DNA from: a virus
Lineage: Duplodnaviria > Caudoviricetes
IMG/VR virus record: IMGVR_UViG_3300029305_003510
Location: 96,001 to 160,000 of that record
DNA: 64,000 bases
Direction: 5' to 3' (one strand)
Within the stretch, counting starts at the first letter, position 1, and the number at the start of each line of letters is the position of its first letter. Positions 55,400 through 55,826 of this stretch are shown piece by piece. The translations under genes were made by a program, and so were the position numbers. The notes under the pieces were generated by a model. It was not told where the DNA came from and ran no database searches. It worked only from the letters and a program-made list of their open reading frames with translations.

Positions 55400-55826
55400 G
55401 TTGCCGAATCGGCTCCGAGTAAATGTTAAGTCTTGTGTGAAGTTATTCTTAAATGATTTCACACAAGACACTTTAATACAAAGAGCCTGATCGAGTGGAA
55501 TCATTCGTATCGGCGGCGAAAGGTCGCCTGACCGCAGTCCCTGACGAGGGGTTGTGGAAGGGAAGATCGAGTCGTGGTTTCTACTTGCTGTGTTCAGTCG
55601 GTAGGAGTCGGCTAGCGGGCGTGGAAGAGAGATTCGTGCATCCACCCGTGTGGGACGAGTAAATGCTGGATGTCAGTGATGTCTGGTATAAGAAAAGTAT
55701 CGAACGACGTGGTTTATCCATGCCTCTATTAGAACTGTGCTTCTCCCCGTTAGCTCATTCATCAATCCAATTATAAGTTTCCAACAGAGTCGCATATCTT
55801 TAATTGGGTATGCGGCTCTTACTTTA
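55400..55826 (+). ncRNA. Candidate large structured non-coding RNA
   Basis: No credible ORF; at least 8 hairpins with many G-U pairs on the + strand; ends in the hairpin AGAGTCGCATATC/GGTATGCGGCTCT. Confidence 0.6.

What the first reader, a model, noticed from the sequence alone, without database searches (positions are those of the whole stretch)
55400..55826. Candidate ~430-nt highly structured ncRNA between the ligase and HU-like genes
This is the largest non-coding gap in a densely coding window and is more G-rich than other intergenic regions. Visible stems: 55430-55469 (18 bp) inside GGCTC/GAGCC; 55489-55511; GGCGGC-GAAAG-GTCGCC; CCGCAGTCCCT-GACG-AGGGGTTGTGG; GGTTTCTAC..GTAGGAGTC; CGGG.GTGGA..TCCACCCG; ATGCTGGATGTC/GATGTCTGGTAT; and a possible long-range GGGAAG/CTTCTC pairing. 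Many G-U pairs work only on the + strand, which implies selection on RNA rather than DNA. CGAGTAAATG occurs twice (about 55417 and 55656). I could not match tmRNA, RNase P, SRP, group I or group II intron hallmarks.
Basis: partly seen in the sequence, partly recalled or inferred. Interest (0 to 1): 0.75.

Follow-up and report, generated by a model that had tools for sequence, protein, structure and literature searches.

The report
New structured RNA gene, AR9-like jumbo phages
The gap holds a gene for an intricately folded non-coding RNA, about 280 bases at its core, that matches no catalogued RNA family, has its own phage-type promoter, and is kept at this spot by a whole group of uncultured giant phages; its job is unknown.

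Summary
The finding is real, but its borders move. The window is part of a 230-kb uncultured jumbo phage whose closest cultured relatives are the AR9/PBS1 group.

About 25 distinct relatives keep a 480-730 nt gene-free gap directly upstream of the same 218-aa gene. The gap stays there even when small genes are inserted after the ligase.

Every gap holds two copies of the AR9-type late-promoter motif. This motif is strongly enriched between genes across the genome. The first copy predicts an RNA start at about 55478, so the large hairpin at 55430-55469 lies upstream of the RNA.

The conserved core (55478-55756) has two domains and about ten helices. Of 60 pairs tested in the window's clade, 39 show compensatory changes (0 of 500 shuffles reach this), and a second clade gives 22 of 34. 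The fold is specific to the + strand. There is no conserved ORF and no Rfam match in the window or in ten related loci. The RNA is single-copy in the phage and was not found in bacterial genomes.

Folding energy of the core alone is only modest (z -2.8). The z of -8.2 for the whole gap comes largely from flanking hairpins.

Function is unknown. I favour a free-standing, trans-acting RNA. A cis-acting leader for the downstream operon is the main rival. The scan's first stage also noted this element in a related genome.

The parts
52939..55374 (+). NAD-dependent DNA ligase gene, the upstream neighbour
   Evidence: Pfam PF01653/PF03120 and PHROG 3869. Relatives with small ORFs inserted after the ligase still keep the RNA next to the 218-aa gene.
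55430..55469 (+). 18-bp hairpin upstream of the predicted RNA start (-48 to -9). Probably the 3'-end or terminator hairpin of the upstream transcript, or a promoter-proximal palindrome.
   Evidence: Seen in the MFE fold. Hairpins occur here in most relatives but in different registers, so no consensus fold emerges. Hairpin-then-promoter is the usual layout in this genome, although this hairpin lacks the T-run.
55467..55478 (+). Promoter P1, an AR9-type late-promoter motif (GACA, six bases, TA); predicted start at A55478
   Evidence: The AR9 consensus is AACA-(6N)-TA/G with the last base as the start (PMC5312081). The strict motif is 48 of 59 intergenic in this genome. It is present at this place in all 11 clade A loci and in all 15 clade B and outlying loci examined.
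55478..55606 (+). 5' domain: hairpin 55488-55512; nested helices 55513-55518/55573-55578, 55522-55525/55565-55568 and 55532-55557; hairpin 55581-55604
   Evidence: 28 pairs, 17 with compensatory changes, 87.5% of cells paired, 0 of 500 shuffles as good. Coordinates. The helix 55513-55518/55573-55578 has no compensatory change and competes with a local hairpin.
55607..55756 (+). 3' domain: closing helices 55610-55618/55747-55755 and 55623-55627/55740-55744, enclosing hairpins 55632-55660, 55663-55689 and 55708-55722
   Evidence: 32 pairs, 22 with compensatory changes, 94.4% of cells paired, 0 of 500 shuffles; slid controls give 5-8 pairs. The covariance model R1 scores 100-148 bits in 10 loci.
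55690..55705 (+). Nearly invariant purine-rich joining strand (AAGAAAAGTATCGAAC)
   Evidence: The first ten bases are invariant in all ten clade A sequences and the rest in nine of ten; predicted unpaired.
55729..55739 (+). Second conserved joining strand (TAGAACTGTG)
   Evidence: ACTG and GC are invariant in clade A; predicted unpaired.
55786..55829 (+). Terminator-like hairpin with a T-rich tail; one candidate 3' end
   Evidence: The only terminator-like site found by the scan. A hairpin is present here in 7 of 10 clade A loci and absent in L008, L014 and L077.
55828..55861 (+). Conserved hairpin with a fixed base (TTGAAC ... GTCAA) and a covarying G+C-rich stem
   Evidence: Seen in most clade A and clade B loci. 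It is the only such hairpin in the genome. Its role is unknown.
55868..55900 (+). Second terminator-like hairpin with a partly T-rich tail; the alternative 3' end
   Evidence: The hairpin and a GATTAA..TTT tail recur in the window, L007 and L011. The terminator scan did not call it.
55912..55923 (+). Promoter P2, the same late-type motif, serving the 218-aa gene; predicted start at A55923
   Evidence: Present in 8 of 11 clade A loci and in 13 of 15 clade B and outlying loci under the strict pattern.
55969..55980 (+). Early-promoter-like motif (TCTATATAAAAA) in the leader of the 218-aa gene
   Evidence: It resembles TATATATTAT, which occurs 15 times in the genome, always intergenic and always on the + strand. 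The AR9 early consensus is given in PMC5312081.
56018..56674 (+). 218-aa acidic protein gene, the constant downstream neighbour
   Evidence: 88 relatives found. No Pfam or PHROG match. pI 4.8. AlphaFold model with pLDDT 86 shows two helix-sheet-helix repeats; HU appears only as a weak fold match.

Best explanation
The gap holds a free-standing gene for a structured non-coding RNA of an undescribed family.

**How it is made.** The phage's own non-virion, AR9-type RNA polymerase starts at promoter P1, at about 55478. The transcript folds into a two-domain core of about 280 nt (55478-55756) with about ten helices and two nearly invariant single-stranded joining strands. It ends at one of the hairpins before the next promoter, at about 55829 or about 55900.

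**What it probably does.** The RNA most likely acts in trans as a stable folded particle. Its invariant junction would be a binding or active site for a protein or another partner, rather than working by long antisense pairing.

**Shown:** conservation, synteny, covariation, strand specificity, absence of coding potential, absence from known families, and the promoter motif with its genome-wide enrichment.

**Inferred:** the start site, the 3' end, independent transcription, and the trans-acting mode.
For: - **Synteny.** All loci fetched through the 218-aa gene keep a 480-730 nt non-coding gap directly upstream of that gene. This holds down to 30% protein identity.
- **Covariation.** 39 of 60 pairs are compensatory in clade A, with 0 of 500 shuffles as good and much lower slid controls. 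In clade B, 22 of 34 pairs are compensatory.
- **Strand.** The core folds at -103.9 kcal/mol on the + strand and -72.1 on the - strand. G-U pairs are frequent in conserved positions.
- **Promoter.** P1 fits the AR9 late consensus. The strict motif is 48 of 59 intergenic, while 11% of the genome is intergenic. The polymerase subunit gene nearby is most similar to the AR9 non-virion beta subunit. The distance from P1 to the invariant motif is 210-261 nt in 11 loci.
- **Separate transcript.** A second promoter, P2, lies between the RNA and the gene in nearly all loci. Terminator-like hairpins with T-runs precede P2 in clade B and in the window.
- **Not coding, not antisense.** No ORF is conserved. 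The 17-nt invariant strand has no antisense target in the phage genome.
Against: - There are no expression data.
- L008 and L014 have no clear terminator before P2, so read-through into the gene is possible.
- The thermodynamic signal of the core alone is modest (z -2.76).
- The clade A model does not detect clade B. Homology between the clades rests on position, shared short motifs and one bridging sequence (L017).
- No partner has been identified, and the adjacent protein is acidic, which makes it an unlikely RNA binder.
Confidence: 0.6

Rival explanations
1. The RNA is a long cis-acting leader. Transcripts from P1 read through into the 218-aa gene and the genes after it, including the non-virion polymerase beta subunit gene. 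The folded domain senses a protein or ligand and sets termination at the downstream hairpins.
For: - The RNA always lies directly upstream of the same gene, on the same strand, even when other genes are inserted after the ligase.
- L008 and L014 have no clear terminator.
- In clade A the 3' shoulder of the conserved hairpin (CGTCAA, 55856-55861) could pair either with TTGAAC upstream or with TTGACG at 55898-55903, which resembles an alternative-pairing switch (read).
Against: - The gene has its own late-type promoter P2 and an early-like motif between the RNA and the start codon.
- Clade B has canonical hairpin-plus-T-run terminators before P2.
- The spacer between the core and the hairpins varies in sequence and length, and the third pairing element is missing in clade B.
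Confidence: 0.2
2. The RNA is a pre-primer or R-loop-forming transcript at a replication origin, in the manner of ColE1 RNA II or the T4 origins.
For: - The transcript is G-rich and structured, and it lies next to the DNA ligase gene.
- Other agents in this scan proposed this role for different multi-copy jumbo-phage RNAs (unchecked).
Against: - The RNA is single-copy.
- The cumulative GC skew has its minimum near genome position 75 kb, not at 151 kb.
- I did not see an A+T-rich unwinding block or iterons when reading the gap.
Confidence: 0.06
3. The RNA is a ribozyme, for example a reduced RNase P-like RNA or a new self-cleaving or ligating RNA.
For: - It has a multi-helix junction with invariant purine-rich strands.
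- Two strands resemble RNase P CR-I and CR-V in sequence. This resemblance is from memory and is only a lead.
Against: - No RNase P, intron or small-ribozyme model matches, even at E up to 10 in a 751-nt search, nor in ten relatives.
- The CTT of the CR-V-like strand sits in a covarying helix with GGAAG, not in a P4-type helix.
- The phage has only one tRNA gene.
- The hammerhead-like box in one loop is not conserved.
Confidence: 0.06
4. There is no dedicated RNA. The gap is only a pile-up of terminators, promoters and protein-binding DNA sites.
For: - Much of the folding z-score of the whole gap comes from flanking hairpins.
- The gap does hold promoter motifs and palindromes.
Against: - About ten helices between 55488 and 55755 covary, including long-range pairs 130-145 nt apart.
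- G-U pairs make the fold strand-specific.
- DNA sites do not explain compensatory changes in stems of variable sequence.
Confidence: 0.03

Closest known systems
ROOL and GOLLD RNAs (large ornate RNAs, often in phages and prophages; Rfam families)
   Same: Like them, this is a large, multi-helix, stand-alone non-coding RNA carried by phages. Its function is unknown and it was recognised by covariation. ROOL was first found in rumen samples, and one relative of this phage sits in a Ruminococcus MAG.
   Different: There is no match to either covariance model. The core is about half their size. It is not next to tRNA genes. It is single-copy and tied to one gene neighbourhood.
6S RNA (regulator that mimics an open promoter for RNA polymerase)
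   Same: It is a stable structured RNA, it lies in a cluster that includes polymerase subunit genes, and it would be made by the polymerase it might regulate.
   Different: There is no Rfam 6S match. The fold is a two-domain, multi-junction structure rather than a rod with a central bubble. I found no conserved single-stranded copy of the template-strand promoter element inside the predicted transcript.
Bacterial RNase P RNA
   Same: It has closing helices, a hairpin, and then conserved purine-rich strands that loosely resemble CR-I and CR-V.
   Different: There is no model match. The would-be P4 strand is used in another covarying helix. An extra hairpin sits before the CR-I-like strand. The phage has a single tRNA gene.
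AR9 late transcription units (promoter AACA-(6N)-TA/G, PMC5312081)
   Same: The promoter motif, its spacing and its enrichment upstream of genes are the same. The polymerase subunit gene nearby is an AR9 homologue at 27% identity.
   Different: In the AR9 stretch examined (L096), no RNA gene is annotated and the clade A model finds nothing. Here the promoter drives a non-coding unit.

Membership tests
Any Rfam 15 family (4227 models, including ROOL, GOLLD, OLE, raiA, HEARO, 6S, RNase P, tmRNA, group I/II introns, pRNA, riboswitches) | Covariance-model score at or above the family's gathering threshold | tested here: not met
   There are no matches in the whole window or in L001 and L002. In E-value mode only chance-level hits appear in the gap, and none falls in the gaps of ten homologous loci.
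RNase P RNA | P4 helix formed between the CR-I and CR-V strands | tested here: not met
   The CTT of the CR-V-like strand pairs with GGAAG at 55623-55627, with compensatory changes in four of the five pairs. The remaining 6-bp alternative has one mismatch and only one supporting change.
RNase P RNA | A pool of tRNA precursors to process in the same genome | tested here: not met
   ARAGORN finds one tRNA gene in 230 kb and none in the window.
tmRNA | tRNA-like domain plus tag reading frame | tested here: not met
   ARAGORN finds none.
Group I / group II intron | Interrupts a gene, and the catalytic core matches a model | tested here: not met
   The element lies between complete genes and no intron model matches.
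AR9-type late (non-virion polymerase) promoter | AACA, six bases, then TA or TG just upstream of the start; enriched upstream of genes | tested here: met
   The motif is at 55467-55478. The strict motif is 48 of 59 intergenic. It lies 17-100 nt before many start codons. It is conserved in all homologous loci.
AR9-type late (non-virion polymerase) promoter | Transcription actually starts at the last A/G of the motif | not testable with these tools
Intrinsic terminator at the 3' end | G+C-rich hairpin followed by a T-run | tested here: inconclusive
   The scan calls 55786-55819 plus its tail. Clade B has clear examples. L008 and L014 have none.
ColE1 RNA II-type replication pre-primer | Sits at the replication origin | tested here: not met
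   The GC-skew minimum lies elsewhere and the RNA is single-copy. GC skew is only an indirect indicator of the origin.
Small-protein gene | An ORF conserved in frame and position among relatives | tested here: not met
   The longest ORFs differ in frame, start and length in ten relatives.

The most novel reading that the evidence does not exclude
The RNA is a dedicated cofactor or regulator of the phage's non-canonical, template-strand-reading RNA polymerase module (a functional analogue of 6S RNA for a sigma-less viral polymerase), or a new catalytic or RNA-only assembly. Either way it would be a new functional class of large viral RNA, not merely a new family.
Probability: 0.12. Interest if true: 0.85.

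Novelty: new variant of a known kind. Interest (0 to 1): 0.62.

Why it matters
Large, complex-folded non-coding RNAs are rare, and those whose roles are known have mostly turned out to do unusual biochemistry. This one is conserved across a broad, uncultured group of gut or rumen jumbo phages that carry their own multisubunit RNA polymerases. It has a promoter of the type used by those polymerases and sits in the polymerase gene neighbourhood. It gives RNA structural biologists a compact target of about 280 nt with good covariation, and it gives phage biologists a marker and a testable component of the AR9-like infection programme.

The analysis also yields, as a by-product, the early and late promoter consensus for this uncultured phage group.

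Tried and rejected
**Searches that found nothing useful**
- blastn of the gap against 50,697 phage records: no match.
- tblastn of the 218-aa protein against the same records: no match.
- IMG/VR scan with the 16-nt invariant motif: 51 stretches, but only one (L077) is a true relative by nhmmer.
- A composite motif scanned against 185,579 prokaryote genomes: 0 matches.
- The clade A model R1 finds neither clade B nor the AR9 region, so I could not build one model for the whole family.
- Search for antisense targets of the conserved strands in the phage genome: only self-matches for the 17-mer.
- Foldseek of the 218-aa model against the PDB: no match at E of 0.001 or better.

**Ideas considered and dropped**
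- The RNase P reading was dropped after the covariation test.
- A loop-E reading of the two joining strands fails because the key G is U in the window and in L007.
- The hammerhead-like CUGACGA in the loop at 55543-55549 is not conserved.
- An antisense promoter using the conserved TGTTA at 55426-55430 fails because the downstream TA/TG is missing in all relatives (read).
- Pairing between TAGAAC in the RNA and GTTCTA in the downstream leader is better explained by an early-promoter-like motif.
- The consensus fold of the first hairpin gave no pairs, because the hairpins are in different registers.

**Technical failures**
- A script folding all gaps with shuffles timed out; a lighter version ran.

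Full report
**Setting.** The window is positions 96001-160000 of a 230,855-bp IMG/VR virus record estimated to be 89% complete. The gap 55375-56017 lies between an NAD-dependent DNA ligase gene (52939-55374; Pfam and PHROG) and a 218-aa ORF with no family match (56018-56674). Two genes further on is a 616-aa protein whose best matches among cultured phages are the non-virion RNA polymerase beta subunit of Bacillus phage AR9 and its PBS1-group relatives, at 27% identity. AR9 itself keeps a ligase ... HU, Ugi, polymerase-beta neighbourhood. A relative of the locus sits on a 125-kb scaffold of a MAG labelled Ruminococcus flavefaciens. This is a weak hint at the host.

- The whole gap folds far better than shuffles on the + strand (-227 kcal/mol, z -8.2) and less well on the - strand (z -4.6).
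- It is the largest gap in the window by my gene calls, and it has the lowest + strand energy per base of the 18 gaps over 330 nt in the genome.
- Much of that z-score comes from near-perfect hairpins at the edges. The conserved core alone (55478-55760) gives -103.9 kcal/mol and z -2.76 on the + strand, against -72.1 and z -1.06 on the - strand.
- Folding energy alone would therefore be weak evidence. The case rests on comparison with relatives.

**Relatives.**
- A profile search with the 218-aa protein found 88 relatives.
- I fetched their contigs, 17 more loci from JGI and ENA metagenomes, two from IMG/VR, one more IMG/VR locus by motif, and one from a MAG.
- Every locus that reaches far enough upstream has a 480-730 nt gap with no called gene directly before the 218-aa gene.
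- In L007, L008, L013 and L015, one to four small ORFs are inserted after the ligase, yet the gap stays attached to the 218-aa gene.
- By sequence the gaps fall into two clades. Clade A, which includes the window, has 11 distinct versions. Clade B has about 12. There are a few outliers: L017, L083 and L095.
- L017 shares motifs with both clades.

**Where the RNA starts.**
- All gaps share a short motif near their 5' end and a second copy about 350-620 nt further on, just before the protein gene.
- The motif is A/G-ACA, six bases, TA. This is the late-promoter consensus of AR9, AACA-(6N)-TA/G, in which the last base is the transcription start (Lavysh et al. 2017, PMC5312081).
- In this genome the motif lies 17-100 nt upstream of many start codons and extends to a consensus RACA-N4-TATAA.
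- A strict version occurs 59 times, 48 of them in the 11% of the genome that is intergenic.
- I therefore read 55467-55478 as promoter P1, with a predicted start at A55478, and 55912-55923 as promoter P2 for the 218-aa gene.
- This places the 18-bp hairpin at 55430-55469 upstream of the RNA.
- A hairpin followed by a promoter is the usual layout in this genome, where it marks the end of the preceding transcript. This hairpin lacks the T-run, and among relatives the hairpins are in different registers, so no consensus fold appears.
- The start site is an inference from the motif, not a measurement.

**Structure.** From P1 to the invariant motif of the core the distance is 210-261 nt in 11 clade A loci, and the core is 260-323 nt long.
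- 3' domain (55607-55756). RNAalifold on a MAFFT alignment of ten sequences predicts 32 pairs, 22 of them with compensatory changes. On the same alignment 94.4% of cells are paired, no shuffle out of 500 reaches the observed values, and sliding the partners by 1-3 columns drops the compensatory pairs to 5-8. Because the structure was derived from this alignment, that control flatters it somewhat. The number of compensatory cells (60 against 6-9) is far beyond that effect.
- 5' domain (55478-55606). It gives 28 pairs, 17 of them compensatory, again with 0 of 500 shuffles as good.
- Helices in window coordinates: 55488-55495/55504-55512; 55513-55518/55573-55578; 55522-55525/55565-55568; 55532-55542/55547-55557; a hairpin at 55581-55604; closing helices 55610-55618/55747-55755 and 55623-55627/55740-55744; and hairpins 55632-55660, 55663-55689 and 55708-55722.
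I leave it open.
- The hairpins 55581-55604 and 55708-55722 vary freely in sequence while keeping the stem (read).
- Two joining strands are nearly invariant and predicted unpaired: 55690-55705 and 55729-55739.
- Clade B has its own core, with 34 predicted pairs and 22 compensatory.
- The clade A covariance model (R1) scores 100-148 bits in all ten clade A loci. It gives only 14 bits in L017 and nothing in clade B or in the AR9 region.
- The two clades therefore share position, promoters, size, a 3' hairpin and some motifs, but I could not show a common fold.

**RNA, not protein or DNA.**
- The longest ORFs in ten relatives differ in frame, start and length.
- Conserved G-U pairs would be A-C mismatches on the other strand.
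- Compensatory changes across pairs up to 145 nt apart are not expected for DNA-binding sites.

**Known families.**
- Rfam 15 gives nothing at gathering thresholds in the window or in L001 and L002.
- With E up to 10 it gives only chance-level hits in the gap, and none in the gaps of ten homologous loci.
- ARAGORN finds no tRNA or tmRNA in the window.
- I followed one resemblance, recalled from memory, to RNase P (CR-I-like and CR-V-like strands). It fails. The CTT that would form P4 lies in a helix with GGAAG at 55623-55627 that covaries in four of its five pairs, no RNase P model matches, and the phage has a single tRNA gene.
- The RNA is single-copy in the genome.
- A composite motif is absent from 185,579 prokaryote genomes.
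- I found no paper describing this RNA in three literature searches.

**The 3' end and what follows.** After the core come four elements:
- a terminator-like hairpin with a T-rich tail (55786-55829; the only site the scan calls);
- a hairpin with a fixed base and a covarying G+C-rich stem (55828-55861), present in most loci of both clades and unique in the genome;
- a second hairpin with a partly T-rich tail (55868-55900);
- then P2.

Clade B has the conserved hairpin first and then a canonical terminator. L008, L014 and L077 lack the first hairpin. The end of the RNA therefore cannot be fixed from sequence. The leader of the 218-aa gene also carries a motif like the early-promoter consensus.

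**What it does.** Nothing here shows the function.
- I favour a free-standing, trans-acting folded RNA. It has its own promoter, terminator-like hairpins and a second promoter separate it from the gene, and its most conserved parts are unpaired junction strands with no antisense target in the phage genome.
- The main rival is a cis-acting leader. Its support is the strict linkage to the 218-aa gene and the lack of a clear terminator in two relatives.
- A replication pre-primer is unlikely, because the RNA is single-copy and lies away from the GC-skew minimum.
- A ribozyme cannot be excluded, but I found no positive evidence for one beyond the invariant junction strands.
- The neighbouring protein is acidic (pI 4.8). 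Its confident model shows two helix-sheet-helix repeats with only a weak HU match. It is not an obvious RNA partner.

**Limits.**
- Each clade has about ten distinct sequences, which is enough for clear covariation but not for pseudoknots.
- All loci were found through the neighbouring protein, so I cannot say whether the RNA also occurs without that gene.
- The first stage of this scan noted the same element in the genome of L001. That note is not independent evidence.

Noticed in passing
whole genome; in the window e.g. 55467-55478, 55912-55923, 38562-38574 and 26657-26669: The phage has a clear late-promoter consensus, RACA-N4-TATAA, matching the AR9 motif AACA-(6N)-TA/G. The strict form is 48 of 59 intergenic, 17-100 nt before start codons, and often follows a hairpin plus T-run.
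   Followed up: yes
window 28275, 41096, 45378, 49034, 52851 and 60437 (genome 124275 ... 156437), and nine more sites outside the window: TATATATTAT occurs 15 times, always intergenic and always on the + strand, and resembles the AR9 early-promoter consensus. These are probably promoters for the virion polymerase.
   Followed up: partly
window 56018-56674: The 218-aa protein is acidic (pI 4.8). Its confident AlphaFold model (pLDDT 86) has two helix-sheet-helix repeats. Foldseek gives no significant PDB match, and HU appears only at rank 36. Relatives occur only in this phage group, not among 50,697 deposited phage records.
   Followed up: partly
L098 (JAMPAI010000006.1, 125-kb scaffold): A MAG labelled Ruminococcus flavefaciens holds a scaffold with the 218-aa gene and a clade A RNA. 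This is probably a phage contig binned with its host, and it hints at a rumen Firmicute host.
   Followed up: partly
L007 1718-2393, L008 1747-2523, L013 37-1390, L015 1646-2392, L025 2288-2500: In several relatives small ORFs (one with an LPD28 domain, one with HTH_26) are inserted between the ligase and the RNA. This is a variable cargo slot just upstream of P1.
   Followed up: no
genome 95385-96083 (reaches window 1-83), 48028-49049, 225612-226024 and 228903-229379: Other gene-free gaps have strong folding energy per base. One holds the only tRNA gene (Leu-CAG). My gene calls are crude (ATG-started ORFs of at least 70 aa), so some gaps may hold small genes. They may also hold further RNAs.
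   Followed up: no
window 55426-55430 and 55445-55460: TGTTA just 5' of the upstream hairpin is invariant in the nine clade A loci whose extract covered it. An apical TTTCAT..ATGAAA-like palindrome recurs in both clades about 29 nt before the predicted start. This may be a regulator site for P1.
   Followed up: partly
window 55898-55909: TTGACGTGACAA is a near-palindrome (perfect in L007) just upstream of P2. It repeats the half-site of the conserved hairpin at 55828-55861 and could be an operator.
   Followed up: no
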